From Acanthaster planci (lineage: Eukaryota): DNA of 64,000 nt. Positions 1 through 30,844 of the stretch are shown piece by piece. Each line of letters opens with the position of its first letter. The first letter of the stretch is position 1. A program made the position numbers and the translations under genes. Location of the stretch: the NCBI RefSeq assembly GCF_001949145.1, contig NW_019091361.1:3768148-3832147 (forward strand), in the 5' to 3' direction. The notes under the pieces are model-generated. The model had not been told where the DNA came from and searched no databases. It saw only the letters and a program-made list of their open reading frames with translations.

Positions 1-2020
1 ACGGTCACAGAAGGGGGCTATAGTACACCCCCATCCTCGGGATTCACACCCCTCACGTAAAATGATCCAAAAGTTTTAGTTTTGTTAACATTATTTAGAC
101 ATTAAAATTGCCGAATCATTGATATGAATACCTACATGGGATACATTCGGCTGGTTTCAGATTACTGTACACTTGTTTTCAATGAAAATCTTTCCAAAGA
201 GCAGTTGCATAAATCAGAAAGTACATTGTACTCAGAGAAGGGTGTGTCGCTTCATCTTTGAAAAGGATTACCGGCATACTAGAGTTATGGCGATGCCTTA
301 ACCGTGAATGAACATGGAACCCTTGAGAAACGAAGTAAACAAGTATGTAGAGATTTTCTGTTTCGATCCAGTTCCATCAAATGTATAAAGATTGTTTACC
401 ACCGGAAAGAAGCGTTCTTCTTCAGAAGAAGGCACAGCGAGAATGTCGCGCAAAAGGTTTCGGTGACAGATCGGTGCATAGTCGATGTCTTAAATACTGT
501 GCATAGTCGATGTCTTAAATACTTTGTAACAAATGTTTAACTGTGATCTCACTCGTCAGTAGGTTTTCTTTAATATTTTCACATTTTTAAAATGTGATGT
601 TGATTTTTAGTGTTCATTTAGCTTAGTTATTTTATATTATGTCCATATGTCGATATTTAATGTAACGATTCATTCGGTAAAGTTGCTTGAGGGATCTTAG
701 TTATATTTTTTTTTATGTCAACGTGCCATTCAGTTTTTTTTCTAAATACTTCTAAATAAATGTATTTCTAAATAAACTATTTTGAATTGAATGAATTTTT
801 ATAAAGTGAACAACCGTGGCAACATTTTCCCAAGAGTAGGAAAACATACTCTGTAGTCAAGAAGCGTGAACATGCGTGGGCGATGAATGTTACGGGTGCG
901 CATGTGCATATGACATTAAGAGCAAAGCTGCTCGTACAGAACCCACAGCTTCGTTTTCAGCCATTGTGAATTACCTTTGGTAGTGAGTAACAAAATACAC
1001 GAGCCCGAGGCTTTGGAGAATGAAATCCATTCCCACGACATTAAACTGGTTAATGTACTTCCTTGTGTTTTGTGTTTTACTGAATTCATCGGCACAGAAA
1101 CTACAAAGTGGCTATGTGATCGCTGATAAATGTATTTGCGTATTGTGACGCCCGCAGGTGAAGTGTTTACTCCCGGGTGGGATCGGTCTCTTCTATTTCT
1201 AAGGGTTGCGTGTTTTTACCGATGGCGTCAAGCGCTGCGGCTGCACTGTAGGCCATAATACCCATGATCCATTGTCACACATAACGGTGAACTGTTGCGG
1301 TGAATTTCTGGTCTTCAGTGTACGTGTGATATTTGCCCACTTCCAACAAATCAGACGCATCATGATTAACTCCCAGAATTCAACCCCTCATAGGAAACTA
1401 CTCCCTCAAAATATGATTAAAGTTACTTCACCATGGTAGTGGAAAACCATTATATCTGAATGGTGCAATACAATTCATCCCAGTGATACAAGAACTACAG
1501 TTATATAATCCCTATGAGAGTATTATAGCTCACAGTCAGTACCCACAGCTCTAAGTTGTAAACGAGGTAATTAAGTAATTCGCAATAAACATGCTGCGCA
1601 CACCGCGTTGGGCGTCACAGTACTACCCCAAAGTGGTAAATTTAAAGTTGTAAGAGTATCTTTCAAGACATCTATTTTCAGTCCTTTGAACTGTTCGTAA
1701 ACAACGAGATACACTCTTTTAAACTTCATTTTAAAGCACACTTTCAATAGTTATCAACGTGTTGTGCAAGACTCAAATAAGGCGTAAATAGAAGAAAAAT
1801 AAGGGTTATTCAAATTGTTTTGCTAGATTTGAAACTATTTTTTTTTTTCAATCTTTTCATTTGTTTAAAAATTAAAGTTGTTTGGGATAACTTGTTAAAC
1901 TTTCCACCTTCTTGGGGACACGATCATGTCTGTATTTAAAGGCCTGTTTATATTTTACGCGAATGCAAAATCGCAGCCGGATTTGGGCTCTCCGATTTAA
2001 AATCTCTTCTTTATTTTCAG

Positions 2021-2836
2021 AAATCGATACTGAACTTGACCATCACTCAGATGCCCACCACCGCGAACGGCGCAGAAGTGGCCGGGGCGAGGCTTTGGAC
2101 ACATGGGACTGCGACAACGTGACCGTGGTCCCAAACGACATACGCACCTCCTTCCCCTTAAACGAGTTCTACCAGAAGTACATGCATGCCTACGGTATCC
2201 CTATCTTGTCCTCCAATATCTCGCAGGACGTCTCGCTGATGCGCGCCTGCTACGTGGTCCGCTTCCTTCTAGCGGACCGCAAGGACTTGCGTGACGCTAT
2301 GTACGATCGGTACGGCCGGGTGGCCGTCATCGCCAAGACAGAGCGCACGACCCAGATACCGGAACACAGTTACCTGAACAGCAACCTGTGGGACAGTCGT
2401 GCACGAGGGCTGGGCGGCTTCCCACAGGTACCCGTCACCACGAACGCAGAGGAGAACCTTCTGTGCGAGGATATAGCGTCAGATCCTTGGTTTGAAGAGG
2501 ATGTCCTCGTGCACGAGTTCGCTCACGCCATACACCTCATCTCCTTGGATAGAGCCGACCCGTCCTTCGATGCGAGGCTGCAGACCATCTACAATATGGC
2601 CAAGGCGGAAAATCTGTGGCGTGATACATACGCCATCGTGAAAAGGACCGAATATTTCGCAGAAGGGGTACAGGGATTCTTCAACGTCCAGACGTGTAGT
2701 AGCTTCGTCGATGGCGTTCACAACCACGTCTGCACCAGGGAAGCATTGAGAGGCTACGACAGCAGACTATACAACCTTATTACGGAAGTCTTTCCCTGTA
2801 TGAACACAATAGTAGACCGCTGTAATTCAACTCAGA
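2021..2836 (+). CDS. Exon encoding a gluzincin-type Zn metallopeptidase-like domain preceded by a furin-like RERRR site
   Basis: Acceptor ttattttcag|2021, donor 2836|gtgagt. HEFAH at 2512-2526, EYFAE at 2650-2664, Tyr 7 residues before that Glu, RERRR at 2062-2076. Also RARGLGG, AEENLLC and DGVHNHV.TRE.L..YD..LY, which I recognise from an uncharacterised, largely bacterial family. Confidence 0.85.
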
Positions 2837-5800
2837 GTGAGTATGACGTTGAACACTCCAAAAGGCAAACCAGCATCGGATCACTGGTAGCGATCCAGGT
2901 CCGCGTGAAACAAACAGGCGCTATAATAGATTCAACATGTAGGTCAAAAGTTACTAATTGGATTCCTCTTGGTTGTTTCATGTACACAAGACCGTGTCAA
3001 CAACGGCAACAAACAAAAGCACCAGAGTTTTTTATTTTTACCGTGGCTCTGTCTAACATTTTTTCCAAAGGTCTGGCAGCAAATCAAGAGCTCCGCATGA
3101 ATTGTGAGATTGTCACCACTACAACCACCACCGCAGAGGGTCCAACCACCACCCCCACCGACCTTACTACCACGGCCGCTACCACGGTGCTTACCACCAG
3201 TGTTGCCTCCACCACTACACCCCGTACGACCTCGGTCCCCCTTACGACCTCAGCCCCCTTTACGACCTCGGTCCCCCTTACGACCTCAGCTCCCTTTACG
3301 ACCTCGGTCCCCCTTACGACCTCAGCTCCCTTTACGACCTCGGTCCCCCTTACGACCTCAGCTCCCTTTACAACTTTGTTCACAGACACCACCACGGATA
3401 GCGGAGCAACAGAGAATTTTACGGGCAGTGTGAGTGTAACTACTCAACTGAGCTCTACTAGTCACGCAACAACTGCGCCAGATAGTAAGTCTGGTTTCCT
3501 TTTCAATAACGGTCCACGACTTGACCAACAGGCGTATGCATGCCAATCACGCGCACAATACCTGGCGAAGAATCTAAAAAAATGACACAATTAAAATCCT
3601 CCCCGTATCATACTAACACTCGGGTGTGCGATGCATGAAGTCATCCTTCAGTATCAGATCTCATTTTACCATTGCAATTTGAATTATTGATAAATCAATG
3701 TCCGAATGTGGTAATATAAATTCCCTTCGATATTAAAACACTATGCACAAAAGCACAATGCACGAGCGACCAGCAGTCAACCACTGGCTGCTTTGTCTGG
3801 TTCACAAGTTGTTGCGTAAATTAATACCGGGTATAGTGGTTGACTGTATTTCAGTTACGGTCATTGATTGAACTTGACCTAGGTTTAAGCGGTTGAACAG
3901 TTGAGATGAAACCATAAGCAGGAAGTTGGGATGTAGCCAGTACAGGAAGTTGTTAAAGTACAGAGTGCATTATGCAGAATAACAAGACTGGTGAGCATGA
4001 GCTGATAGTGTGTATATCTGTCAGACGTGACATCTATCTCAACCCCGCTATCTTACAGAGTTCTGTGAGGAGGGCACAACTTTCGACATCGATGCTGGCG
4101 TCCTGACCTGGCCTGTGACTGCTGCTGGTACGAGGAGCCAATCCATTGAGGTGTGCGCCCTCGAAACTCAAAAGGGTAAGGGAAGAGTGAGTTCTTCGAC
4201 GCACCTGGAAACGCTTGAGAGGATTGTAAACACGCCCGTGGACTGGTAACTCTTATGATCAAAAAGGTTCATTACTTCTAGGCAGAAAACCTTTTTTAAA
4301 CGTCACTTCGTTTTTCATTGGGACCCATTTTCATCATTTTCCGTGTTTTTCACCTTACTCAAGTGCCCAATTTTCACACTTCTGTCGAATCCCCCTCAGG
4401 TCATCAGTGATACTGTCCGGAAGACTGATGAATCATTTGTATCCATCAGTTCGTTTCTTCAAGTTCGAGAGCCATTTGTCTGAAATGCGGTTCGTTTTTC
4501 ACTCGGATTCAAATTTCCGCACTGAGTCCGACATGACCAACAGCGGTCAAAATGAGCTTCACGAATGTTAGGCATGGCATACACGTACACGTACACGCGC
4601 ATCCATACGAGTGCGTTTCGGTACTAGTTGACTTTTATTGCATTGAACTAATACGTGCAACGACGTCAAATTGCCCGACTAAAAGGCCAAAACAAAAACT
4701 TTCTGTTCTCTTCCATACGGTTTCCTTCTTGCATGACACGTTCTCATTAGAGCTTTCATCCCCTCTAAATCCTCTAAAATCCCCTCTACAAAATGTTGGC
4801 TTCACTTTCAACTTCTGACTCTGTTACTTTTGAGGTACCTAAGATTTAAGACGGGCAAATATTTGGTAGAAAATGGATTTTTTTGCGAGTGCAAGTTAGC
4901 AAAAGGGATTTTGAGTGTTTAAATACTAATTGCTATGGCAATGAGGGGCAAACAACGTTTTCCGAGCTTGATGTTGATCGATTACTTTTGGGGTCCACCT
5001 GTCCGAGTCCAGAGCCATTTTGCTGGCTTCTGGCTGTAGTGAGATTCAGTACGCATGCGCACAAACTAAGTGGGGGGCATGAACATACCTCTCGTGTTAA
5101 CATGAGTAGCACCCCATCCAGGCAGTATAGTGCAAACAAATGTAGTACGCGCGTGTGTTGGTTCACGCGCTGGTTCTTGCATATATTATCCACTTCGGTA
5201 ATTCACCCGGTTCGTCAGTGCCTTCGTCATGCACGCGCACGTACCACTGATTACAAGCTTCCATTGGATGACACTAAAGCTGCGCGTGAACTTCCATGTA
5301 ACGCTGTGTGCAGTGGGCGTGGTTTAAACTGAACTGGCGTCACACAGAACCGGATGGGGAAAATGGACGGCCGAAGTGTTCATGGAAATGCAGCTTATGA
5401 CACAAAATGTTCTCTCCAATTCCTTTGTGTAATTCAGCTGTATGTGGACGTCAATCCCATCACGTCGGGGTTGGGCCATTTCATATCTTTGTTTCCTTTA
5501 AAGAAATAATGATAAAAAAAGATTTTTCATTGAAATCTGTCCAGCGGGTTCACCGATTGCGCTGCGAAACTGCTCCACTGTGGTCGGGTCACTCCTTCAC
5601 CCCGAGTGGGAAGAGCAGTGGGAGATTCAGGACTGCGGGACCTCAAAGGATCGAAATGACATCAGTGTGAAGGATCTTACAAATGTAAGTATGCGCAGAA
5701 AGGGCTTCAGTGGTTATTCTTGCGTTGCTAGTGGTTGTTGTCTGCAAAACTGCACCGTCTCTCGTTATTTCTGTGTTTGCCACTGTTGACAAAATCAAAA

Positions 5801-8800
5801 AGCCTGATTAAGTGCTTAATTAATTAATAGCTTAAGTGCTGGTAACTTAAGCTACACATGTGTAAAAATTTTGACCTGTCACTGAATGTAGACAATTGGT
5901 TGACTACCTAGTTTTACAGTTTTTTGGATTGGATTTAGATCTATTTTAAAAAGTGAGATAAAATATTTCATCAAACTTAAGCAGTCAACAAATTTACTAA
6001 TTACGACGGTGCAAGAAGAATTTATTTTCCTTGGCATTTTAAAAATTATTACATACCGGTAGCAGCCAAAAGGAATTTTATGCGCTTTGCCAAGTACCCT
6101 CAAAGCTGCATGACAAGATACGCATATTACTCAAAGGCTACGCAGGCAGCATGGAAGGCAACGTAATCCAAAGTTTGCTTGAAATAGGCATGAAGATAAG
6201 GGCCCATGTTGAGATTGTGTAGAAGATGAATATAAGTTAAAAATCATAATGTTGAATTTGTGATTTTGTTGTAAATTATACAGCCAAACCTCATCCAAAG
6301 TGTATAACAACTACAAAATTGCTCGCAGTCTGCCTAGCTTATAAACTTGTTATTACTACAAAAGATACAAAAATGGCCGTGTGTACCCGTCCGCCATTAA
6401 GTACAAACGCCACCGAACCAGTTTCGAAGCCCACGCAGCTATGAAGGTTGGAATCAGAAGCGTGACGTATACTGAAGTCAAGTCTTTATTGATAATCACC
6501 TGGCCAAATGCTTGATCTTTCTAAACTTCCAAAAGAAAGAATTCATTTTGTGTCTCAAAAACAAAGTCTTACTTTCTTTGATGCGGAACCGGTATATAAT
6601 AAACTATTTGTTCTAACATTCCTGGCATGTTGTCTTTTGATAACTTGGTAGGTCACAGTCAGCACTGGCAATGCTGTAGAGGTTGCCCAGTTTCTGGCCA
6701 ATCTGACCGGCAACTTTAAAAGAGCGAGAGTAAGGCCTATCCTTGGCGATGTATCCGAAGTTTTTCAGAATATCATCGCAGCAGAATCGGGAGATGCAAA
6801 GGTAAAAAGAATGTGAACAAAAACATTTAGAGGGGAACATTTGATGGGAGCTGAAGTCTGAAGAAAGTGAATATTAGAGAGAAGTAGGTTATCCATAAAA
6901 ATGCCTCTTAGTTTGTTTTAATCCAAACTAAAAGATCAAGGTCCAGAATTTGACATGGACACCGGTACTTGTATGGCAAAACATTCTTCAGGTTACAGAG
7001 GCCATGTCGAAGACGGTTGACGACGTCGTCATCGGCTTGTCATCTGGACAACTCAAGGGGGGAGACGATCCAAAGAGTCGTTCTATCATCGTGGAGTCAT
7101 TCCAGGCGCAGGTTGCGCGGACTCTACGCCAGGCGGGCAATGTCAGCCTGCGGCAGGAGTCGGTGCAGGTGGAGGCGGTCAGCATCAGCCGCTCGGAGGC
7201 CGTGATGAGCGGGCTCAGCTTTGCCTCCGTGCGGCCTGGTGGGACGGGAGGAGCCTCAGCCACCGAAAAGGTTCCACTCAACGAGACTAGGATCCAGACT
7301 TTTCTAGGCCAAAACGGGTCGGCGAATGGAGTGGTATCCGTCCAGCTTCCGGGAAGTGAGCTGGACCAGGCACACGATGGCAAGTCTAACATAAACAGAG
7401 GGAAATCTGTAGTTTACAAAAAGGAAACTGGAGCGTTCTTCCTTTCAAGAGAAGGACTTTCAAAAATTACATAATTAACCGTTGTAGAACAATCTTATTA
7501 TCGCTCGAGGACAGAGGAACGGACACTGACTGAGCTACGTATGGCCTCGTGATAAGAACAAAATTATGCAGAATGTTTGCAATCTACAGGAGCCTCCTTT
7601 TCCTAACAATGGAAAGAGTAAAATAATTGTCTTTAATAATAATAAAACAAGAGTAAAACCATGGAGCTTATTGCAGTTTCAGCCCACCTGAGATCAGGGA
7701 AATGTTTGGAGATCGTAAGGAGGCTTTCAACACACTTACTAGTTGCAGAACTCACCTGAGGATTAAGCCTGTGGCAAACAAACTGTAATATTTTTCTTTC
7801 CATTCTATCAGGTGGAAACTCGGGCCAGCTTCGCGCAAGTTTTATCGTGTACGGGGATGATACCCTGTTCCCCTCGGCCAGGACAGCGGGAACGCAGAAT
7901 GCAGGTCCCACGGTGGGAGGGTTCGTCATTGCTGTGACTCTACAGGACCTGGTCTTGCGAGACCTGGCCAACCCGGCCGTCATTCAGTTCAAGGTCAGCA
8001 CGTCCAACATGATGAACAGAGCAATATGGCTTCATCTCTGTCATTGGATTCAACTTTTCTAACTACCCGACTTGGAAATTGTAAACTCAATAATATCCAT
8101 GTATCGATACTGAACCATCAAGCTGCATAATATCGATCCAAAGATCGAGTATTTTTTATTTATTTCAAACGATAATAGGTAGGCCTGCATAAGCTTCAAG
8201 CGGTTTTGATTCCAGTGGTAGTAGGAAATCGATTGTATCCTCCAGTCAGTTGTGTTGTACGGGCTGATTCGGTTGGCTAAAAGTCTGCCAAATTTCAGCC
8301 AATGGGCTTTTTGCCCATTTTTCTGCCTTGGGGCGCAGCAATCTTGATTACTGATTTCAGAACTCTGTAGTCACATACCGATTGACCTGCGCAAGCCTTA
8401 AAGGTCAGCAATGATTTTTGTATCCATTTCTGTGTTACAGTTAAAAAAATGATAACAACGATTGATGGTTCAATGGCGGAAAGCCATCTTAGTCAACCAA
8501 ACTACAGTGGTACTCCATGTGGTACAGTAGTGTTCCGTGCGTTGGTAAACGGAAAACCATGGACTAAGACGTGTTGGTAAATTGACCAGTATCCGGGTCA
8601 TAGGTGACTTCGTCATACACACGCACGCCCCACTCATTGCAAGCTTCCGTCAGATAAGCACTCAAGTTGCACGTTAACTTCCGGTTCCATGGTTCCAAAT
8701 AGCTCTTTGTGCAGTGGGCGTGGTTTAAGAGAAATGACGTCATACTTACGAACTTCCTTTTGCTCATACATGATTCATAAGCGTGGGGACTGGAAACATG

Positions 8801-11800
8801 ATTATTTCCCTTTGGCAGGTCACAATGTTTTTATATTAAAGCTCAGTTAGTTAATGACGGGACCTTTGGCTCATTTCTCCTCTATTCAGGCCCCTAGTAA
8901 TGGGGATACAAAGACAATGAAGCAAACAAGGTGCGTCTTTTGGGATTTCACCCTTCGGAATGGCACTGGAGACTGGTCAGAGGAGGGATGCGCCCTCAAT
9001 GAAGCGACCAATGACGTCATAGAGTGCCACTGTGACCACTTAACTAACTTTGCCATTTTGATTGTAAGTGTCAAAGGCATTTTTAAAATCGGTTTTAATT
9101 TTTTGAAATTTAGATGATTCCTGATCAGTAAGTTTTTTGTATACATCAGTCCTATTTGCAGATGCATAAATATGGTCGGTGTCGTTTTCAAGAAGTAAAA
9201 CTAACTGAATCAACGCCTCTCGAAAAGAGTGAACCAGTTCGGTATTCCAGCAGCGTATGCCACAGATGAACTGCGTCCAAGGTCATTCGGGCATAACCGA
9301 ACGAACACCGACTTGCACTTTTTCCTTTGTTCTCGCTTGACCTTAATTAATTTCATGAAATACAGAGCTGCACAAGAGGGATTTCGAAAGTTGCATTTGG
9401 TTGGGGGCGCTGCGCAGAATTTCTGGCCTGAACGATTGAATGGCAAGATGTCCGGCCCAGCACACACATCCCCCGGCATACGGGAGTATAATAATGCGGC
9501 TCAGTGGCATACACTGTGAAGGCAATTTGTGTCTTGTTTTGTTCCTTTTGAGAATTCAGCACTGCATTCTAAAATGGCAACAAAAGGCCTGGGAATCGAT
9601 GGCAAAGAAACACGAAATTCAGCAGAATGGGTTTAGTAATTCCCTTAGATAAGAAGCTTAAGAAAAACAATTTATTTCACTCTGAAAAAAATCCCGTATG
9701 GAAAATTACTTGCAGCCGTGGGGACCATAGATTTCCAGTAAAACAAATGGACGGACGCCGTTAAAGAACACGTTAAATAGACACAGTTCACTGGAAAACC
9801 ATAACTTCTTTCTAACCCGAGCATTTTCACAGAAATGGGTGGCATCCTTGGCTGCTTAACTTTTTTACCTCTTATTCTGAAATATTCTTTCGATAGGAAG
9901 AAGTCATCGGTTCTTCGCAAGCGCTGCACGTCAGCAGTCAAATTGGCTGCGCCCTGTGCATCGCATTCCTCGCCATAACTTTGCTTGCTTCTCTGTGCTT
10001 AGATAACAGCAAGGGGTAAGAAGTGTGAGGTTTTTTTTGTTTTGGGGCGGGCGAAGGCTTTTGTTAGATTTCTGCATCGAGTGAAATTTAGAGAATGCAC
10101 TTCTAATGTATATACTGCAAATGTTTATTTACACCTGCTGTCAAGACGTTAAAAAATCTGATGGCGCATACATGACGTATTATTATATTATGATTGTCCA
10201 TAATAAGGAAAAAACAACGATTAAAACATAATTGTCGAACAAGTTTAACCAATATGGAGATTTCGTCAAGAAAACGATAATGATGAACCAGTTTGGTATT
10301 CCAAAAAGTAATGTCATTCGTAATGCGCAAAATTAAAATGTTTTGAAGTCTACCACGAATCAGTAATTCCCTGGATGTATGCTTACACAATAGGGCTGTT
10401 TTAAATTCCTCATGCACGATATCTTGAAAATGGAGATGCCGTTATCTTGTCCAAATTATGATTTTAATAGCCTCGTGCGAAGGTTTCTTTGCCTCTCGGT
10501 TGAGTAAGAGGTTTGATATGCTTCAGGCTTCGTGAGCCTCCTTTTTCAATGAATATTCTCATCACAGGAGCCAGAAAGGAAGCACCTCTCGTCTCTTGTT
10601 CTATCAGCTTTGCGTCTCGCTGCTCGTCCTGTACGTAGTGTTTCTGGCGGGCGTCGATGGTGCAAAGGTATTTTCTAGTTCTTGTGGTATTGATCAGTAT
10701 TTCTGCGCTGCACAGACTGGGTTTTAAATTGGTTATTTAATCCAAAACCCTGGGGGTGAACAGAGGAATACACCCAATCTGGCGTAACCTTCTGCAGGGT
10801 GCTAAACTTTACACCAGAGTTTTTGTGGTGGGACTCCTTCCTGGTGCGGATCCACACTATAGTTTTCTTCAGCTTTACGTTTGACAAAAAATAGATCGGT
10901 TCATACATTGAGTATCTCTATTTGGGTATTGCATGAGAGTATTTGGTTATTCTGTAACGTCATTTTCATGAAAGTGTAAATATCATCTGCAATTTTTTGT
11001 TGTTGCTGTAAATGCCAATGTCTTCAATCAGGACCTTTGGTGGATCCAAGGAGGATGGGTAGAAGGGGGGGGGGTCATGTTATACTTGGTTTTTAAAATA
11101 TAACAAAAGAAAGACTATTTTGTATGACTTTTTCAACATCTCTCCTTCCCTAAGTGTGTAAAAGTTTCCAAATTTAACCTTGCCCAGGAGAAAGGCCAGT
11201 CAAGAGACAAAAAGAAATGCCAATTTGCTTGCTTCCCGAAATCTGGTGGTTTGGGAGCTGAGCTGGCTTTTTTTTTCAGCCTATCCCTATTGGTTAATAT
11301 TTTTCTCAGCATTCGCACTGTTCCCACAAACAGTAAAACATATTGAATAATACTTGTGACTTATATTTGCCGTCAGTAGGATTTGATGTAGTAGCCACCG
11401 TTTCCTTATATCTCTATTTGTGCCCTTAGGGTTCAAACGGGGGTTGTATGTTTGTCGCTGCGTTTCTCCACTATTTGGTTTTGGTCGTGACGGTGATGAT
11501 GGTCATTTATGCGGTGGATCTGTACTTGGCAACGTCTAAGAAGATCCCACGCGACAATGCACCGAAATTCCATACAACTTATGCTGTCTTGGTGGCTTGC
11601 GGTAGGTACCCTTTTCATCTCCAGTTAGATAGAGTGTTTCCTGAACTTAATTAAATAACTGTCTTTGAAAAAACATTGAATTGGGAGTTTTGAATAGTTT
11701 GAATTATTTAGCGCTGAAGTCCCAAGATGAGTTAGACATTTTATGTGTTTGTCTTACCAGGTTTTCCCATGATTGTTATTGCAATCACTGTACCCTCTGC

Positions 11801-14111
11801 AATGGAGTACTATAAGATTAACAGTGATGTCATGAACAGCGGCCCAACATAGTGAGTACACTTAAATAATCCAAAGATGTTATAGTCCAGGTGAAAAAAA
11901 AACAAGAACACGCGACTGAACGAAAAGAGAAGGGAAATGAGGAAGGTGGACGTAACTCTGTACTCCAGCAAGCGAGATTTCTAATGATGCTTTAGCAGTT
12001 TACCTTCGTGACTTCATACATTTCAACTTGTACAAGAATGACATCTGTACAACATCTTCAACAGCATCTTTTCAACTGAAATTATTACAGTGCATAGCTG
12101 TCCCTGTTGGTGTAACTCCATGTTTTGAAAATCTGTCGCAGACTTATATTGTATAGGACATTGCAATCGTATCTTAACTTGAAGGAGACGATGAGTGCTT
12201 AATTAAGGCCTGTTATGCACTGGCTTCAGTCTAAACGGTCGTCCTGTAAAATTTTCCGCAGTTGTTTTCTCAAGCCAGGGCTGGCCATGTACCTGGGCCT
12301 TCTGCTTCCCGTCTGTATCTTCCTGGCCCTCAATGCTACTGTCTTCCTCTTGGTGTGGCGCCGGCTGCCTCGTGCCGATAAGAGGCTTCACTCCGCCCAA
12401 ACCTCTCAGCGCCTTCAGGAAGCTGTGGGAATCTCGCTTCTGACCTTCTTGACTTGGCTGTTCGGCATACTGGCCATTACTTCTGCGGCTATCGCTTACG
12501 ACATCGTGTTCCTTATCGCCTCCACTCTACAGGTAACAAACCACTTCAGTATTTCAAAAATATATTTGGTGCGTGTGAGCTGGGCAGGCGACTTGTAGTC
12601 CTGGTTCCAAGACCTTCGCATTAATCAAACTACAGAGGGTGCTATATTTCTTTATGTTCTTTTCTGACCACGGGCGAAGGTCTTGAACAATACGGGCGAT
12701 TCACAGTAGTGCGCTTCCAAGTGTTTGCAACGCACTGACCAATCACAGTGCGAGAAATCTGTCGACCCTTTCCAAACGCGCACTGGATCGACAGATTTCG
12801 TGCATTGTGATTGGTCAACGCGTTTTTAGGGCGCACTATTGTGAATCGCCCGTATTCGTTCGGCAGTGATTATAGGGTTTTCTTTGTTATCCCACGAGAT
12901 TTTTGGGGAGCCAGTCAACAGCTTCTTCGTTTGAGCCGTATTGTATCATTCATTTTGGTCCATACTGAGTGGACCAATGTGAATTGCGTCCCGACTTTCG
13001 AAATACGAAAATTTCCATGTAAACAAGCCGTGTTAAACCCTGTCAACACTGTGAAAAGGGAAAAGCAAAGGGCGGAGGTGGCGGTGGGTCGTGGTACTGG
13101 ACACCACATCACACCATAGGGTCGCTGTCCATTTTGTATATGTGCACTTAGGCACTTATTTATGTGCACTTATTTCGCGATCTACTGCATTTCAATTTTA
13201 TAATTTTGAAAAGTTCAGACATGTAACCTTATAAATCCCCATTTGGATTTAAATGTATGCTCTTGTGCACATGGTTCTGCAAAACTGCAGGCTCGGTTAA
13301 ACCGTTATAATGGGGGGGGGCGGAGGTTGACCCCCAGACCCCCGATCTGCGCTTGAGAAGTGAACCATATCGCCCTGTTGAGGAGTGGGATTTTTTATCG
13401 TATTCCTATGGTCCGATACGTTTTTATTAAAAAATAGTGAATCGGAAAGCGCTAGATGCCAGCGGCAAAATTTGTGCCAGAAATTGGAGGGATGGGGGAA
13501 AATGGGATTCTGACCCCACATGACACTATATTTGGAGTGACGTTCATGATACAGACTTACATCTGCTAGTGTAAAATGAATCACATTCTTGCAGAATCTT
13601 ACACCAGAATGGCATATCATATTTTTTTTTATTCTCGAGTGAGTTTTGGTTGATGTGAAGTCCGAAAAAAATCTTCAAAATCCGCCTTATTTTTTATCAC
13701 CACGTAAAAGTGGGGTATGATTCAAAAGAGGGTTTGCATAGCTGCCATCTTACAGGTCAGTGCTTTGTCCCACGGGATATGCACAAAGAAAGCTTCCGTG
13801 TGGAGCAAAAGAACTGCCCTGCAAGATGGCTACCACTCAAAGTCTCTGTAGTTCACCCCCGGTCAAAAGTGGAAGTGATATACACCCCCCCCGGATTTAC
13901 CCTCATGCTAGACAAGCAGACTGGCAAGTCACCATTATTTCCTCCATTTCAGGGTTTGTTTGTGTTCATCATGTTCTGCATTCGACGTAAGGAGGTGCGA
14001 GCAGCCATCTCAACTCACCTGAGATGCTCTTGCTTGAAAGGAAGTAATCAGAAGCAAAAGTACGAGCTAGGACAGAAGAATGTTCAACTCGACACTAAAC
14101 TCAGTATGTGA
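2021..14111 (+). CDS. Adhesion GPCR (family B2) with N-terminal zinc metallopeptidase-like domain, mucin stalk, HRM, GAIN/GPS and 7TM; 5' exon(s) not found
   Basis: Phase-consistent exons joined by hand: 2021-2836, 3071-3484, 4059-4175, 5545-5684, 6652-6801, 6992-7379 (GC donor; alternative GT donor after 7355), 7812-7993, 8890-9063, 9897-10015, 10568-10667, 11430-11601, 11761-11851, 12262-12532, 13953-14111 (TGA). Total 3293 nt, about 1,097 aa, no internal stop. Motifs: HEFAH, HRM, GPS, TM3 FLHY, ECL2 YCFL, TM7 STLQGLFVFIMFC. Confidence 0.9.
3071..3484 (+). CDS. Thr/Ser/Pro-rich mucin-like stalk exon of the adhesion GPCR
   Basis: ccaaag|3071 to 3484|gtaagt, phase 1-1; Thr-rich translation with TTSVPLTTSAPF repeats. 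Confidence 0.85.
3226..3369 (+). repeat. Coding minisatellite, 4 x 36 nt (two related 18-nt subunits) encoding TTSVPLTTSAPF
   Basis: acgacctcggtcccccttacgacctcagc(t/c)cccttt repeated four times, nearly identical. Confidence 0.95.
4059..5684 (+). CDS. Hormone-receptor motif (HRM) domain, two exons (4059-4175, 5545-5684)
   Basis: Joined translation FCEEGTTFDIDAGVLTWPVTAAGTRSQSIEVCALETQKAGSPIALRNCSTVVGSLLHPEWEEQWEIQDCG has the C/W/C/RxC/W/C pattern of HRM; canonical AG/GT ends. Confidence 0.8.
5222..5350. repeat. Dispersed intronic repeat, similar to 8608-8752
   Basis: Shared cttcgtcat.cac.cgcacg, aagcttcc and tgtgcagtgggcgtggtttaa in the same order. Confidence 0.6.
8890..9063 (+). CDS. GPS motif exon with canonical HL|T autoproteolysis site and tethered-agonist (Stachel) start TNFAILI
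   Basis: RCVFWDFTLRNGTGDWSEEGCALNEATNDVIECHCDHLTNFAILI; cag|8890 and 9063|gtaagt. Confidence 0.97.
9897..14111 (+). CDS. Seven-transmembrane domain and short C-tail of the adhesion GPCR (6 exons)
   Basis: TM1 SQIGCALCIAFLAITLL, TM2 QLCVSLLVLYVVFLAGVD, TM3 CMFVAAFLHYLVL, TM4 CGFPMIVIAI, TM5 LLPVCIFLALN, TM6 LLTFLTWLFG, TM7 STLQGLFVFIMFCIRRKEVR. Confidence 0.92.
12689..12856. mobile_element. Palindromic MITE-like element abutting or interrupting a second short hairpin element (about 12596-12688)
   Basis: aatacgggcgattcacagtagtgcgc / gcgcactattgtgaatcgcccgtatt termini plus inner tgaccaatcacagtgcgagaaatctgtcga / tcgacagatttcgtgcattgtgattggtca; neighbour has caagaccttcgc / gcgaaggtcttg arms. Confidence 0.75.
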
Positions 14112-14339
14112 AAGACCGCTAACATCGAGCTCCTTGCTCCATAACAGAGGCGAATCCAGTTCTTGGGAGGGGGATGGGAAATTGTAACTAAAAATGGCTA
14201 TCCAAAAGAAAACACTGTTTATTACCCCTTCCCAACAAGAAAGGTAGTAGGACTATTTTTGAAATGCTGACGCACTCAGTCCCGTTTCCCCCAACCGAGA
14301 TGGCTTCAAACATGTCATACCGGTATGTCTCGTGTTCAC

Positions 14340-16805
14340 AGGGCTGCCATCTCAAATCGTGAGTCGTGATATGTGAAATCTCGTGGAGATGATTTCTTTT
14401 AGACGAGACAGCACAGTTTTTGAACTCCAACGATACTTTGTATTTAGAACGGGAGTTAATATTGTTATGTTTTGGGGGTGGGTGGGTGGGTGGTGGTGAC
14501 AGATTTGTTGCTACTTTACTGCTGTGTGGGCCACCTTAGACCTTTGTGTGCGACACTCTTAACTATTCAAAAACACATCAGTGTTTTCAGCAGACTAGCA
14601 CGTTGCATGGTAATATACGGTGAAAATGGAAAATGAACTTTTTAGTAAAGGAATGTACATGGCTGGTCTGAAAGGTGTGTTTAAGACTGGCTCAGTAGAA
14701 TGGATGCAACTAATGCCCAGCCGCAGGCGAGGGAATCGTTTAAGACCGACTAAACACAGATTTATTCCCATTCACTGATATCGTTGTAGTCAGAGAGTCA
14801 AAAGAAGTCAACATACGAAATTTCCAAGGATTTTGTTGAAGAATTTCATTTTCATCTTCCCAAACACCCCGTCCATTTTATGGTCCATTCCTTGTACAAG
14901 TTGTGTAGAAGAATCTTCTTATAAATTATGGACTTGGCGTGCGCGTGGCGCGTTCTGCATTCAGCGGCGCACACAGACTCTTGACCAATAGGAATGGATT
15001 AAAACTGTCTTGTCTCCAGGTGCCAGCTTATTTTAACGCAGCAGCCATTATCAAATCGTAGCGGACATTTAATGTTAATACATGGTCACGTTGCGCGTTG
15101 TTGAATAGGGAAACTGTATAAGGTATTTATGAACAAACCTTATTCACAAGGAAGCTATTTTTTTGATCATGCTTCCTGAATTAGTCTTATTCCATGTACT
15201 CTGCCATGGGGGTGGTTCCAGACTACTTTGAACCCGTGCCCCACCTTCGTTCCGTAACATTTTTAGATATAATAAAACTGAAAATTTAAATCATTCAAAT
15301 GTTTTAAATCATGGAAATGACATTTATCCGTAACTTTTTTTATATCATTGCTTTCATTGTAATTTTAATTTCATAAAGAAAGTTAACACTTTCAATTCAG
15401 TATGGCCGACCTTTGAATAAAGTATATTGCGTGTAAATATCACCCTGACATCCTGCATCTTCACCAGCCCCATGTACTGGTTTGCCAAACTGTATTTATG
15501 CAAGTGAAGACCTTAAAGCTAGATCCACCAATTCCCTTAATGACAATGCAGGAAATTTCACAATAAGGGGGATGGAGTATCATACCTCCAGTAAAGTAAA
15601 ATCCAGGAAATGAATGAGGCTCTGGAAAACTTCGTCACATGGTATGCAGCTGACAAAGATGGGATTCGAACTAGAGACAAATCTCTAAACATGCCAATTC
15701 GATGCTATCATGTTACCGTGTCTGGCCTTATGCTGATGCAAACAAAGGACCACATAAATGGAACCCCATCAACGACATCGATCTCAAATGAGAGAATGCA
15801 ATTTGTACTCAGTTTTGTCAGATATACACAGTTTTGTAATTGTTCTGTAATGGTAAATTTGAAATCATTAAATTAAGAATATTTTTGGATTAGTAAGAGA
15901 AATTACCCAGAAAATGTTATGAACATTACCCCTTATGTTAAGTCTTTATGGTACTCGGTTCCATATTCCATGGTTTCTGATTTTATGCTTTCATGGAATG
16001 TTTTTCTATTTCTCTATAACTGTTTCGTCGGATGGCAAGTCTGCAATAGTTTCTAATACAGGAAGCAAAATACATTTTTGGTGAAGGTTATATATTTTAT
16101 ATTTTAAAGAAACAGCCATAAATAAAATGGGACTTTCATACTGCTCAATATGTCTGTTTTTTTTCATTAAGTCTAGTTTTTGCTCTGTCGTCATTGGCTA
16201 CGTAAGTGCTGCTCCATTGCATTATACTCTGAAGTGATATACTGTACACGAGGAGTAATTTGTACAATAAAATGTGGTAAAGCTATTCGAAAGATTCACT
16301 TTGAGTTTTCTTTCTGCATCAGGGACTGGACTGCGCAGTTTGAATCCAGTCTCTAGTCTTTTAAAATAATAAGACAAAGCATAGCATAAGACTCCAGCCA
16401 TTGCCATGAACTTTTTTCTCCCGGCCTTGATTACAGTTTTTCAGAACCCGTAACAACAAACTCATTTTTTCCAGATCAAATAAATTCCCCAAACCAACAT
16501 TTATGCTTTCTCGATACAGTTCCCTCTAAAATATTGTATAAATGCGGTTCAGAATAGAATAAATTTTTCCAATAGGGCCTATGCTTGAACAGACTTTAAG
16601 AAAAAAGGAATGACTATTTAGGAATCACGTTTGTTTTGGCTTTTCTTTTTCGTTATCACTGGCTGATTTAGCTAAAAAGCTTGTAAACGAAACAGTGGTC
16701 ATCAACGGGTGAGAAGTGTATTCTCATTAAGTTCTTTGTGCTTCTTGTAGAAGTATACTGAAGGAATCAAGTTCAACAATTAAAATCAAATAACTGTAAC
16801 ACAAT
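14340..16805 (+). repeat. Diverged non-coding segmental duplication, copy 1 (collinear with 27122-28668)
   Basis: Shared blocks in the same order: ggctgccatct, gacagatttgttg...caccttaga, atttgtactca, atacaggaagcaaaatac, cagtttttcagaacc, aacgaaacagtggtca, gaatcaagt..aacaat.aaaatcaa. Confidence 0.85.
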
Positions 16806-17147
16806 TATTTTCAAGATGTATCTTTGCGTTGGGGAGATGTTAATTTATACAAGGGGTTTTGCGCTTAACCAACATGAATATTAACGCACATTCTTCTGTT
16901 TTAAATGCATTATCTTTTACCCATTTTGAACTAGCCTGGACAACTAATATGCATGGCAGGTCGACTTTGTGTTGAGTTTTGGCCTTCACTGACAATTCTC
17001 ATCACTGTTATTTGACCAAGTGTGAAGAATAGTGTTTACGTTAGAAAAGGGGGAAAAACAGATTCAAATCCCACCACCTGAATACGAACTTTGGAACAGT
17101 TGTAATTTGATGGCTAAATTTGGTTGTCAAATCATTTTATTTTCAAG

Positions 17148-20100
17148 TTATGGCATCATCCATTCCGAGGGTTATGGCAAGTACATAAGCAATTGGATGA
17201 TAGACGGGGAGCCACCATATAATCTGGTAGAGTTGGACGCCAATCGCTTCGGCAATTGGACAACAAGGTCAGTTGTTACACCATTACCTTGAGGAGAAAC
17301 ATCTTGTTTAGAATCTCTTCCCATGTCCAAATGTCATACATGTAGCTGAGGCTAGAAATATACTCATGAGATTCTCTTTCCAGCGGCTGAAGCCTTTTGC
17401 CGTAGACACAGCCATACTTGAAAGCCGGTTGTGTCCCGCATTGTCGTTCTGGAAACTGCTTTTCATGGGTATTGGGTTGTGCCATTCTACTGAAAGCTGG
17501 TCATTTTCACTTTGCTGTTTGGCCTTGTGTGAACCATTGTGCTGGCACTAACAAAAGAAGCAGGGTGTAATAAAAATGGACGCTTATTGTTAGTGCAATG
17601 TGTTTCTTTTGTTACATGTCCGTGGTGTGGCCTTGCTGTGCGGACGTGCAAACAAAGCTGGGCTACGTGTTGCAGGTTGAATACTTTTTGTGAATCTTTC
17701 ACTAGGTAGTCCCTCTTTGTAGAAAAAAAATTAAGAGGCATATTGGAGTCAGGGTTATCGATGGGAAATAGTCAATAAAACCATTACGGTAACAAAAAGG
17801 CAGTTTATAGAAATAGGGTTAAAGTTTTAAAAGAAATTAGTCATTGTTTCTAGTTTTCTTGAAAGGAACACCCATACTAGGTAGATAACATTAATGTGTG
17901 TCTTTTGATCCTAGCTCAGTAACTCGTTTTGTAAGTATGCCACGCTATGCATGCGCAGTTCCTGCACCCGAGAGCAGATGAGTTACTTGAGGTATAGACT
18001 AGCTCAGGAATTTGTTCAGCAAGAAACAGGTTTCCAGCAATGCATTGTGTACGCCTATGTCTCTTATGACTTGTGGCCTGCTGTAGTTTGTTTGGTGCAT
18101 AAATTTGAAGGCCTCTTATCCATCTGTAACATTAGACCCGCAAGTAAGCATGGAGTATTTATAAAAGTACAGTTGGATGTGTTAGCCCGACAATGTCGGG
18201 TTTTAACACCATGTTATCCTAATTAGTTTTCGGCTTTTTGAAATTGGTTCATCAAATAATGGGGGACACACTGAAATCCAGGAATTGTTGATAGCACAGC
18301 GTCATACGGTATTTCTACATTATACCGTCACGGTTATTGCAACTCCTTGCTTTGTCTGCCCAAATCGAGAACACTTTGTGTTCTTGAAAGGCGCCATTCG
18401 AGAAGTTCTTCATTGGGTAGGTACAGCTGCCTTCTTTTCACCTGCTGTGCCACCACTCCGCCAAGTTGTTTTCACCCCAAAGAGCATCTTTCAGAAATTT
18501 CAAAATGTTTGTTAATTGTAGGGAGTACACGAGCATCAAGACCCGTGAGACATACGGGATGAACAACGCCATCGGCTGGCGCCACGAAGAGCGGTGGGCG
18601 GGCAGAACAACCAAGCGCGTCAGTGGAATATATGACAAGCTAAAATGCCGAGGGGCCGAGTTCGGATTTCGTTCAGGTGGGTTCAACACGGTGGTAACAG
18701 TTTGAAACGTTGTCACTCTTGAAGACAAACCCACTCTGTCTCTAATTCCGACCGACGATTCAAATGTACATGTAGTTTTATCATTTTAGGGGGATGGATG
18801 CTGAACTGCAAAAGTATTTGCAGTCAGTAATATAATCCATAATGACTCAGAACTTCAACCATTCTGCCATTGATTTCCTGCTCAATGATTGACTTCTTGC
18901 AGGCACATGCCAACCATCTTTCATATCTATTTTCACTGTCATCGCTATATTTATGGCCATTCTCAGTCCTTCAAATTGTTCTCAGCTTTCAGATTGTTCA
19001 ATTTTATACCAAATTGGGAAAAATCAATAAAGTAGTGTATATCTGTTTGGTTACTTTAATTTCAGGCTGGGAACAGCCCCAGTGGTTTGCACTGGATGGC
19101 GACGAAGCCGGGTACAAGCCGAGCTTCCGTCGGTCCAACTGGTTCGGACCGATAGGGCGAGAGTACGAGATGGTGATGAAGCGAGCTGGAATCATCGATC
19201 TTAGCCCGTCTGCCAATATACAAGTGACGGGAAAAGATGCCTACAGATACCTGGACAGCCTACTGGCCAACAAACTGCCGGCTGTAAGGACTTTATCCAT
19301 TTCTAGTCTTGATGGTGACCACCAGTGTTGTGGTTGATTACCTCACTCGTGTTTTTTTTTTCATTAGGCACCAGAAAAGGACAGTTCTAAGTGTTTGAAT
19401 TTTTAACATTGGCTTAACAGAACCGTATGATGGAAATATCTTTGTCACAATTTGTACACAGCTGGTGGCTTACATGGAGCTTGGTATTTTGTCACTGCTT
19501 GTGAAGATTTTGCTATTATGTATTTCTGGTAATAAAATCAAAGGTTTCTCAAAAGTTCAGTCACAATAGCTCCTAATTCCTAACATACATAAAGAAAGGA
19601 GGCAGAGGAGATACCGAGCTTTCTTGAAATACAGCAGGGAAACGAATGTTCAGTTTCAGAGGTACGGGGAATTCATGGAGTCGTTTCTAGAAACTAGATA
19701 CCAAGCCTCTGTATTCACATGGGTGGGATTTGAACGTGGGTAGCAAGGTGGAAGTTAAGAAAGTATCACTGCACCAACCTGACACACCCCTACTTGATCA
19801 CAGTAAGGAGTTAGTGCCGACTTGCCTCTCCCACATAAGCCACTGGCTATGTCGGGCATGGGCAAGCAGTACCTCAAACAAGGAGTAATTGGCACCACTG
19901 TCTTTTACCAAGCGTAGGTTGGTCGATGCACCCTTTGCCCCATGCTGTCACCTAAGGGAAAGGTCTACTCCGAGGTAACAGTGAACCGACTGGCAGAGGA
20001 CAAATTCCTCATCATCACACATTCTGGTTCAGAGTTCCATGATCTCAGGTCAGTCTTGTCTGTATGTACATTTATTTGTGGAATATCTCCTTTCTCTGTC

Positions 20101-25793: not shown

Positions 25794-27121
25794 GAGGTGA
25801 GAGTGTCCAGCCATCGGATCAATGTTTACATAATAGGAATATCAAAGGAACGGTGCTATGGTTTTATCTGAGAATCACTTTTTGTGCATGTTTAAACTCT
25901 TCTTCTATGTATGAAAACCGATTTCTTAGAGTTCGCTGTGACGTAAAGTCAGGAAAACACTTTGGTTTGTACATGAATGGATGTTGAAATTTTGAACCTT
26001 AAATTTACTCTTTCAAAATTTTCTCGGAAAAAGTTGCTCACTGGATTTTTACCACCTGCAGCAATATATTGTCAAAGAAATTGACATTAAAAATCTTCGA
26101 CAGCGAAGTATATAAAATGTAGCGATTTTTGTGCACAGACCAATGCAACATTGAGGTACAGTGCTTGGCATTGCATGCACATCACAGTTCTGCTCATGAA
26201 CATGCAAATTTATGTTAGCACAAAAACCAAAAAGGACCCAAAATACAGATCATCATTGTGGCTATACGTAAAAATTTTGGAATCGGATCAGGCAATGAAT
26301 GTGTGCACATACCCTACAAGCCAGGTTGTCTTCCAAAGGATTAAAAGTGCAAGCTGGTTTCCAATCTTCATTCACACTGTTGACCTTGTGATGAAGGAGT
26401 CACTGTGGGAGCCAGTCCAGAAGTGATGAAAAGACGTACCTCACTTGTTATCACACACAATGTCACTGATTGACAACTGAGATTCGTTTATCTTTGAAGC
26501 AAGGAGATACTGCCCTTTTCAAATAAAGCCAGATGTTTATCCTGCGTTCATCTCTCACTTTGACTTTTATACAATCAAAAGGCCGATAAATGAATTGAAG
26601 TGTTTATAGATAAGATTTGAAGACGTATTTACACTCCAGGCTCCAAATGTATGATATGACTTGAGTAATCTAAGACTGTAAAATCTGTGGAGTGCTAGGG
26701 TGTCACATCTATGTGAGGGCATTATTTTAACTCGTGTTGAGAAGGCCGTTTGTATTATCCTCGACATCAGATTTAAACTTCAGAGGCAGCTCAAGACAAG
26801 GTGTTAGTTTTATCAAAAAACTGAATTATTTATGGAAACTAAAGAGAAACTGTAATTTATGCTTTAAAGGGGGAACAAACTGCCGTTGATATGAGAACAT
26901 TGTGTACTTAATGGTTCTGTCTTACTCGAATCAATATTTCTAGTCAATGACGCTCTGAACTCTGCCACGTGTTTCAGTGTATAATTGTCTCTTCCTTAGA
27001 ACTAACAAGGGCTAATTAAGTAATTGCTGATGTTGACCAACCTATCACACGTCCTTGGAAGTAGATAAACCAGCACGAGTCACCGTACAAGTCAAGTCTA
27101 ACGTAATATGTCTCATATTCA

Positions 27122-30755: not shown

Positions 30756-30844
30756 GTTGATACAACTAGGCCTATACCTACAGATGATGATCTTGGATAT
30801 AAGAACCCGCGCCCAAATACGCTGGGCCCGGTTTGGGGCATCGG

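What the first reader, a model, noticed from the sequence alone, without database searches (positions are those of the whole stretch)
2021..14111. Adhesion GPCR carrying a lethal-factor-like zinc metalloprotease domain at its tip
Seen: one splice-consistent reading frame links a HEFAH/EYFAE metallopeptidase exon to mucin stalk, HRM, GAIN/GPS and 7TM exons. No stop or second signal peptide lies between them. Established: characterised adhesion GPCR N-termini carry adhesive modules (EGF, Ig, LRR, CUB, PTX, lectin, cadherin); I know of none with a catalytic peptidase domain. GPS cleavage at HL|T yields a releasable N-terminal fragment and exposes the Stachel agonist. Inference: this may be a receptor-enzyme that cuts or binds an extracellular or microbial substrate and couples that to signalling, or that sheds a soluble protease when activated. 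Novelty is unverified.
Basis: partly seen in the sequence, partly recalled or inferred. Interest (0 to 1): 0.93.

Follow-up and report, generated by a model that had tools for sequence, protein, structure and literature searches.

The report
Sea-star adhesion GPCR tipped with metalloprotease
A spliced, expressed sea-star gene joins an intact zinc-protease-type domain to an adhesion G-protein-coupled receptor whose inner signalling face has drifted, so it likely works as a cell-surface protease that can be shed rather than as an ordinary adhesive receptor.

Summary
Fourteen exons (2021-14111, +) give one open 1096-aa frame, identical to the end of RefSeq XP_022107754.1 (Acanthaster planci). RNA shows 12 of 13 junctions. 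The peptidase-to-stalk junction was not listed but is supported indirectly. Patiria miniata has the same fusion; no other species with it was found.

The tip domain models confidently (pLDDT 96) as a Pro-Pro endopeptidase / lethal-factor fold, closer to PPEPs (Z 14.1) than to lethal factor (Z 10.9). All five catalytic positions are intact. It belongs to an apparently unnamed bacterial and marine-invertebrate family and is not a toxin gene. Its sister in Asterias has a stalk and a single membrane helix, which suggests exon shuffling onto a sea-star aGPCR.

New here: the peptidase is the best-conserved part (74% identity). The 7TM drifts fast (60%, against 85-91% in paralogue pairs), mainly on the cytoplasmic side, and both species have lost near-invariant TM3 Trp/Glu and TM6 Gly. 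The GPS is kept.

Best reading: a GAIN-anchored, sheddable ectoprotease with weakened or rewired signalling. Activity, substrate and coupling are untested. No description was found in 10 literature searches.

The parts
2021..2094 (+). End of a short pro-region with a basic, furin-like RERR site; the signal-peptide exon lies outside the window
   Evidence: R-x-x-R also in Patiria and Asterias relatives; processing is inferred
2095..2836 (+). Zinc metallopeptidase domain (PPEP/lethal-factor gluzincin fold), main exon, phase 1-1
   Evidence: AF2 pLDDT 96.1; VIA Z 14.1 to PPEP-2 and 10.9 to LF; Foldseek best E 4.6e-6 to PPEP-3
2512..2526 (+). HEFAH motif: H193, E194, H197 (XP_022107754.1 numbering)
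   Evidence: aligns with the PPEP-3 HEXXH
2629..2652 (+). Y232 (equivalent of the oxyanion Tyr) and E239 (third zinc ligand), 7 residues apart as in PPEP-3 Y190/E197
3071..3484 (+). Exon with the last conserved Cys motif of the peptidase (to about 3105), then a Thr-rich mucin stalk with a 36-nt tandem repeat (3225-3371). RefSeq isoform X2 drops 3224-3385 (GT-AG, 54 codons)
4059..5684 (+). Two exons (4059-4175, 5545-5684): HRM-like / GPR128_N-like domain
   Evidence: Pfam GPR128_N E 2.8e-4, below cut-off; RNA joints
6652..9063 (+). Four exons (6652-6801, 6992-7379, 7812-7993, 8890-9063): GAIN domain, GPS HL|T at 9042/9043, Stachel-like TNFAILI
   Evidence: Pfam GPS
9897..14111 (+). Six exons: 7TM domain and short C-tail, with a divergent cytoplasmic face
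   Evidence: Pfam 7tm_2; ADGRG2 best PDB match E 2.4e-40
14112..14600 (+). 3' UTR, at least to 14600 (end of the stretch laid)
   Evidence: X4 contig piece 13950-14600

Best explanation
This is one sea-star gene encoding a peptidase domain on a mucin stalk above a GAIN-7TM module, and it likely works as a tethered zinc ectoprotease that is predicted to self-cleave at HL|T and would be released when the N-terminal fragment is pulled off, while the 7TM likely serves mainly as an anchor with weakened or rewired G-protein signalling. Shown: gene structure, expression, conservation in Patiria, the catalytic residues, the fold model, the intact GPS and the asymmetric drift of the 7TM. Inferred steps: (1) secretion and removal of the pro-region at a basic site; (2) Zn-dependent cleavage of an extracellular, mucus or microbial peptide substrate at the tip of the stalk, whose length can differ by 54 aa between RefSeq isoforms; (3) GPS autoproteolysis leaves the protease non-covalently held, so shear or binding frees it; (4) origin by phase-1 exon shuffling of the peptidase and stalk exons of a single-pass ectoenzyme gene onto a member of the sea-star aGPCR expansion, before Acanthaster and Patiria split.
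For: Catalysis: H193/E194/H197/Y232/E239 match PPEP-3 H153/E154/H157/Y190/E197 (alignment; passages of PMC12828418), and all five are intact in 120 of 140 family domains. Constraint: Acanthaster/Patiria identity is peptidase 189/254 (74%), GAIN 61%, 7TM 154/260 (59%) (Fisher p 2.7e-4). 7TM identity is 152/254 in the fusion pair against 221/242, 205/242 and 205/242 in three Acanthaster/Patiria paralogue pairs. The fusion pair is 97/138 identical on the outer half and 63/131 on the inner half (p 3e-4); the four control pairs show no such drop. Among 94 other aGPCR 7TMs, TM3 W is in 94, TM3 E in 88 and TM6 G in 92; both fusions lack all three. GPS H/T/F, the TM6 W, the ECL2 C and the TM7 G are kept. 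PMC13197933 passages name G6.50/G7.50 and W6.53 as features of tethered-agonist activation; mapping those numbers onto this sequence is my inference from the ADGRG2 alignment. Origin: the fused peptidases are sister to Asterias proteins of peptidase, stalk and one C-terminal hydrophobic segment (SH-aLRT 96, quick tree; sequences). None of the 29 GPCR-part hits other than the fusions has the peptidase; they carry HYR, SRCR, LDLb, NIDO, EGF or lectin domains, and three short ones only GPS/7TM families. The first three introns are phase 1. Analogy: microbial GAIN-like MAIN domains are proposed to release surface enzymes (bioRxiv 10.64898/2026.05.12.724683).
Against: No enzymatic, cleavage or signalling data exist. 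All seven helices, a Stachel-like TNFAILI, the TM6 W and the TM7 G survive in both species, which a pure anchor would not need; fast cytoplasmic change could mean a new coupling partner, not loss. The 7TM test rests on two sequences and on hydropathy-defined helix halves, and only one of the control pairs (P0072/P0073) is a clear orthologue pair. Junction 2836/3071 was not seen directly, and no contig spans the mucin repeat. Contig depth is lower on the peptidase exon than downstream in X1 (5.2 vs 21.5); in X4 it is 38.4 vs 36.8 and 107.1. A shorter GPCR-only transcript is therefore not excluded. The RefSeq A. planci N-terminus is a weak signal peptide by eye. The family has no characterised member that I found, so the substrate is unknown.
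Confidence: 0.5

Rival explanations
1. A true receptor-enzyme: the protease grips or cuts a substrate on a neighbouring cell, matrix or microbe, the pull unmasks the Stachel, and the 7TM signals through a changed G-protein or arrestin interface.
For: Intact GPS, Stachel-like TNFAILI close to the TxFxxLM consensus (PMC13197933), TM6 W and TM7 G kept, seven helices kept, outer half 70% identical between species.
Against: Loss in both species of TM3 W (94 of 94 others), TM3 E (88 of 94) and TM6 G (92 of 94). The two species carry different residues at these sites (M/L, Y/D, F/M), which looks more like relaxed constraint than a new fixed motif. Inner half only 48% identical.
Confidence: 0.28
2. 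The peptidase fold is used as a peptide- or metal-binding recognition module, one more shuffled adhesive tip, with little or no turnover.
For: The closest paralogues swap many non-catalytic N-terminal modules. The fold also matches the N-terminal domains of anthrax LF/EF and Certhrax (Z 8.3-10.3), recalled as non-catalytic. In bacteria the domain is often appended to other enzymes.
Against: All five catalytic positions are intact in both species and in 120 of 140 domains; binding-only copies usually lose the Glu (general knowledge).
Confidence: 0.13
3. Two adjacent genes (a secreted peptidase-mucin and a separate aGPCR) are merged by gene prediction, or the joined transcript is a minor read-through.
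For: Joint 2836/3071 was not listed, no contig spans the mucin repeat, and depth is higher downstream. Reading through the donor at 3484 meets a stop at 3583.
Against: The stalk exon is spliced to the HRM exon in two contig sets and in raw reads of two runs. Bin depths equal the exon share alone, so no contig enters intron 1 or intron 2. The X4 peptidase contig leaves the genome exactly at 2836 with 70 letters still to go. The domain's closing Cys motif straddles that junction and has a 9-16 residue loop in 53 of 67 stored records with the preceding motif. Patiria has the same fusion.
Confidence: 0.06

Closest known systems
Adhesion GPCRs of the ADGRG2/G6/G7 type, and the sea-star expansion of them
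   Same: Mucin stalk, HRM/GPR128_N-like domain, GAIN with HL|T, Stachel, 7tm_2; best PDB match ADGRG2 (E 2.4e-40); 40-43% identity to sea-star paralogues
   Different: A catalytic-type peptidase at the tip in place of HYR/SRCR/LDL/NIDO/EGF/lectin modules; degenerate TM3 and TM6 motifs. PMC6033456 states that aGPCR N-termini are not predicted to be catalytic.
Pro-Pro endopeptidases PPEP-1/2/3 and the anthrax lethal factor catalytic domain (Pfam ATLF)
   Same: Fold (Z 14.1, 13.7, 10.9) and the HEXXH...Y-x6-E constellation
   Different: Only 13-19% identity; below the ATLF cut-off; eight Cys in the domain; animal and membrane-tethered; no toxin architecture; Pro-Pro specificity untested
Unnamed peptidase family of marine invertebrates and bacteria (often with ShK domains; single-pass forms in Asterias and Antedon)
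   Same: Direct homologues at 40-65% identity; Asterias copies are the sister group
   Different: Only the Acanthaster and Patiria copies were found joined to GPS and 7TM
Microbial MAIN-domain surface proteins (bioRxiv 10.64898/2026.05.12.724683)
   Same: Order of parts: signal peptide, enzyme, GAIN-like autoproteolytic domain, anchor; proposed release by shear
   Different: Bacterial or archaeal, anchored to cell wall or S-layer, no 7TM; an analogy, not a tested homology of the whole protein
Oomycete AP-GPCR bigram (PMC6033456)
   Same: An N-terminal protease domain on a GPCR
   Different: Aspartic protease in oomycetes; the passage read gives no GAIN/GPS and treats aGPCRs as a separate, non-catalytic case

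Membership tests
Adhesion GPCR | GAIN/GPS immediately before a secretin-type 7TM | tested here: met
   Pfam GPS 59.2 vs 22.5 bits and 7tm_2 55.5 vs 20.6; 7 hydrophobic segments
Adhesion GPCR | Cleavage-competent H-x|T/S site | tested here: met
   CHCDHL|TNF in both species; sequence only, cleavage not shown
Adhesion GPCR | Tethered agonist TxFxxLM | tested here: inconclusive
   TNFAILI / TNFAVLV; the last position varies among relatives too
Adhesion GPCR | Conserved 7TM activation residues (TM3 W and E, G6.50, W6.53, G7.50) | tested here: not met
   Two of five kept (W6.53, G7.50); TM3 W, TM3 E and G6.50 replaced in both species. These are common features rather than the formal definition, so structural membership stands
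Adhesion GPCR | G-protein coupling | not testable with these tools
   needs cell assays
Adhesion GPCR | Signal peptide / extracellular N-terminus | tested here: inconclusive
   Exon outside the window; Patiria and Asterias N-termini look like signal peptides by eye, RefSeq A. planci less so; no predictor was run
PPEP / lethal-factor gluzincin fold | Shared fold | tested here: met
   pLDDT 96.1 model; Z 14.1 (rmsd 3.2, 171 aligned) to PPEP-2; Z 10.9 (rmsd 4.8, 187 aligned) to LF
PPEP / lethal-factor gluzincin fold | HEXXH, distal Glu zinc ligand and oxyanion Tyr | tested here: met
Pfam ATLF (PF07737) | Score at or above the gathering cut-off of 27.4 bits | tested here: not met
   17.2 bits; Patiria 12.9
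Pro-Pro endopeptidases | Cleavage between two prolines | not testable with these tools
Anthrax lethal factor (toxin) | Multi-domain secreted toxin architecture (recalled) | tested here: not met
   One 250-aa domain aligns to LF 558-772; the rest of the protein is stalk, GAIN and 7TM

The most novel reading that the evidence does not exclude
The first animal adhesion GPCR with a catalytic ectodomain: a zinc protease of a previously unnamed PPEP-like family that engages its own substrate, so that cutting or pulling both releases an active protease and fires a rewired 7TM, making protease delivery and signalling one event.
Probability: 0.25. Interest if true: 0.88.

Novelty: new variant of a known kind. 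Interest (0 to 1): 0.68.

Why it matters
Adhesion GPCR ectodomains are described as adhesive and non-catalytic (PMC6033456). An intact protease there widens what the GAIN module is used for in animals. If the 7TM is becoming an anchor, this is an animal counterpart of the shear-released surface enzymes just proposed for microbial MAIN domains. It would also be a natural case of an aGPCR shifting to N-terminus-only function, with close signalling-type paralogues as controls. It also points to a widespread marine-invertebrate metalloprotease family with the PPEP/lethal-factor fold for which I found no characterisation. Limits: it was found in two sea-star species only, in a clade that shuffles N-terminal domains freely, and both proteins already sit in RefSeq under generic names.

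Tried and rejected
Candidate first exon at 1020/1053-1107 (signal-peptide-like, phase-1 donor): rejected, since there is no RNA depth there and RefSeq has a different N-terminus.

Alternative GT donor at 7356: RNA supports the GC donor at 7380.

No whole genome is held, so synteny and the first exon could not be read.

No RNA holder was listed as on record among indexed runs. X1 and X4 are guessed RNA, though their contigs are spliced.

Junction 2836/3071 remains without a directly listed read, and the X2 internal intron was not among the listed joints either.

Single-sequence fold failed (pLDDT 35). Sequence search of the PDB with the domain found 0 matches at E<=1; profiles gave only E 0.93 to an LF fragment and E 1.1 to PPEP-2/3. 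NCBIfam: no family for the query. ESM Atlas: 29 of 30 hits were unnamed clusters, the three shown being bacterial, and one was a mollusc-rich cluster with ATLF on 17% of members.

Search for further fusions: 2 of 66 hits (760 candidates) and 2 of 34 hits (5414 candidates) carry 7tm_2, the same two genes each time. Among 229 stored proteins only the 4 isoform records of these genes have both parts. The representative search (best 150 of 7038 listed) hides relatives above 50% identity, so other sea-star fusions may exist.

The careful peptidase tree did not finish; both trees are quick trees without bootstrap or a tested root.

Earlier scan findings: none by sequence or by words.

Literature searches gave no description of this architecture; the library lacks most subscription papers, and most hits were seen as listings only. 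No complex prediction was run.
Full report
Observation. The region holds one plus-strand gene of 14 exons in the window. Joined by phase they give 1096 aa with one terminal stop; 12 introns are GT-AG and one is GC-AG. The peptidase exon matched a database protein at 100%, labelled as an Acanthaster planci adhesion GPCR. Isoform X1 (XP_022107754.1, 1125 aa) ends with exactly my model. Isoform X2 lacks 54 aa of the stalk, which corresponds to an in-frame GT-AG interval at 3224-3385. The first 29 aa come from an exon outside the window.

RNA. Four runs were laid on 1-14600. Twelve of 13 junctions appear in contigs of both X1 and X4, and 11 of these also in raw RNA reads (X11 and/or X14, 1-7 reads per run where present). 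One X1 contig runs spliced from 3342, in the stalk exon, to 14454. Junction 2836/3071 is not in the listed rows, and contigs break at the 36-nt stalk repeat. Four indirect lines support it. The X4 peptidase contig leaves the genome at 2836 with 70 letters left. Bin depths equal the exon fraction alone, so no contig runs into intron 1 or 2. The domain's closing Cys motif crosses the junction with a 13-residue loop, within the 9-16 seen in 53 of 67 stored records, isoforms and the query included. Patiria miniata XP_038068676.1 is collinear across it. Against: depth is lower on the peptidase exon than downstream in X1 and lower than the 3' contig in X4, so a shorter transcript is not excluded.

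The tip domain. Pfam gives only a sub-threshold ATLF match (17.2 vs 27.4 bits). With a 50-sequence alignment AlphaFold2 gave pLDDT 96.1 and pTM 0.93. Foldseek ranks PPEP-3, -2 and -1 first (best E 4.6e-6) and lethal factor from rank 40. VIA-align over 48,161 chains gives PPEP-2 Z 14.1, PPEP-3 13.7 and LF 10.9. PPEP-3 uses H153, E154, H157, Y190 and E197 (passages of PMC12828418). The profile alignment places H193, E194, H197, Y232 and E239 on these, and all five are intact in 120 of 140 domains collected, isoform records included. Homologues occur in echinoderms, hemichordates, amphioxus, a tunicate, molluscs, an annelid, a cnidarian and bacteria, often with ShK domains. In the quick tree, a 99-supported group holds all the named animal sequences together with unnamed ones. 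So 'lethal-factor-like' describes a fold; this is an animal member of a broad family, not a toxin gene.

Distribution and origin. Only the Acanthaster and Patiria genes combine the peptidase with GPS and 7tm_2 (2 of 66 hits; 2 of 34; 4 isoform records among 229 stored proteins); the 50%-clustered search cannot show close relatives. The fused peptidases are sister to Asterias proteins made of peptidase, stalk and one C-terminal hydrophobic segment (SH-aLRT 96). The GPCR part belongs with a sea-star expansion (40-43% identity) whose members mostly carry HYR with SRCR, LDLb, NIDO, EGF or lectin modules, and none of those 29 has the peptidase. With three phase-1 introns at the domain borders, exon shuffling is the simplest origin. 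This is an inference from unrooted quick trees and two species; loss in Asterias is not excluded.

The 7TM is drifting. Between Acanthaster and Patiria the peptidase is 74% identical, GAIN 61% and 7TM 59-60%. Three Acanthaster/Patiria paralogue pairs are 85-91% identical in the 7TM, and the fusion clade sits on a long branch. The loss is one-sided: 70% on the outer half against 48% on the inner half (p 3e-4), with no such drop in four control pairs. Of columns conserved in 27 paralogues, both fusions keep 44 of 67 outer and 32 of 86 inner ones. Against 94 other aGPCR 7TMs (those of 252 stored proteins that passed the length and E-value filter), the TM3 Trp (94 of 94), TM3 Glu (88 of 94) and TM6 Gly (92 of 94) are replaced in both species by different residues. 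The GPS His, Thr and Phe, the TM6 Trp, the ECL2 Cys and the TM7 Gly are kept. A 2026 review names W6.53 and G6.50/G7.50 as features of tethered-agonist activation and describes NTF shedding as a 7TM-independent mode (passages of PMC13197933). I assigned these numbers through the ADGRG2 alignment.

Mechanism. Most likely (0.5) the protein is an ectoprotease displayed on a mucin stalk and held through a self-cleaved GAIN domain, releasable by force or binding, with the 7TM acting largely as an anchor or signalling in an altered way. A fully coupled receptor-enzyme remains plausible (0.28) because the Stachel, W6.53 and all helices persist. A binding-only peptidase fold (0.13) and an annotation chimera (0.06) are less likely. 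Catalysis, cleavage, shedding, substrate and coupling are all untested.

Comparison and novelty. Ten literature searches found no description, and the RefSeq accessions occur in no indexed paper. Term look-ups found no 'peptidase' in the held main text of the aGPCR review (first 300,000 characters) or of the choanoflagellate (PMC12716839) and sponge (PMC4302439) GPCR surveys, and nothing relevant in PMC9759900. I read passages only and no supplements. [quoted passage not shown] The protein is structurally an adhesion GPCR and works, I infer, like a MAIN-type releasable enzyme. Verdict: real, a new variant of a known kind, interest 0.68.

Noticed in passing
window 2837-3070 (+): Intron 1 is 234 nt and open in frame (78 codons), so 1891-3582 is one ORF. 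Only 0.5% of 20,000 shuffles are open (a post hoc test). No contig covers the start of the intron.
   Followed up: partly
window 3224-3385 (+): In-frame GT-AG interval inside the stalk exon, removed in RefSeq isoform X2; it would shorten the mucin stalk by 54 aa. Not among the listed RNA joints.
   Followed up: partly
window about 17100-26200 and 38087-64000 (+): Two similar copies of a dimethylglycine-dehydrogenase-like gene (Pfam DAO and GCV_T exons; 72-93% nucleotide matches between copies); the upstream copy seems to lack the 5' exons. The name is my inference from the domain pair.
   Followed up: partly
window 44161-45829 (-): Retroelement remnant with a reverse transcriptase match (RVT_1 E 1.6e-12) and an upstream ORF, inside an intron of the second dehydrogenase-like copy; DIRS-like by recall.
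   Followed up: partly
window about 30650-30760 (-): Short signal-peptide-like ORF start followed by a dibasic-free short segment; possibly the first exon of a small secreted peptide gene; no Pfam match.
   Followed up: no
window 5129-5345, 8664-8697, 12685-12861, 13727-13846: Intronic stretches with very high RNA depth and loose ends, and an inverted repeat at 12685-12861: dispersed repeats, probably MITE-like.
   Followed up: no
P0107 and P0112 (stored proteins): Unnamed aGPCR-like records with two GAIN/GPS modules, P0107 also with two 7TMs; may be merged gene models.
   Followed up: no
P0002, P0003, P0004, P0102, P0230, P0232 (amphioxus-labelled or unnamed): The same peptidase family, often in tandem copies, with Ig, ShK and in some cases ZP domains: the domain is shuffled into other surface proteins too.
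   Followed up: no
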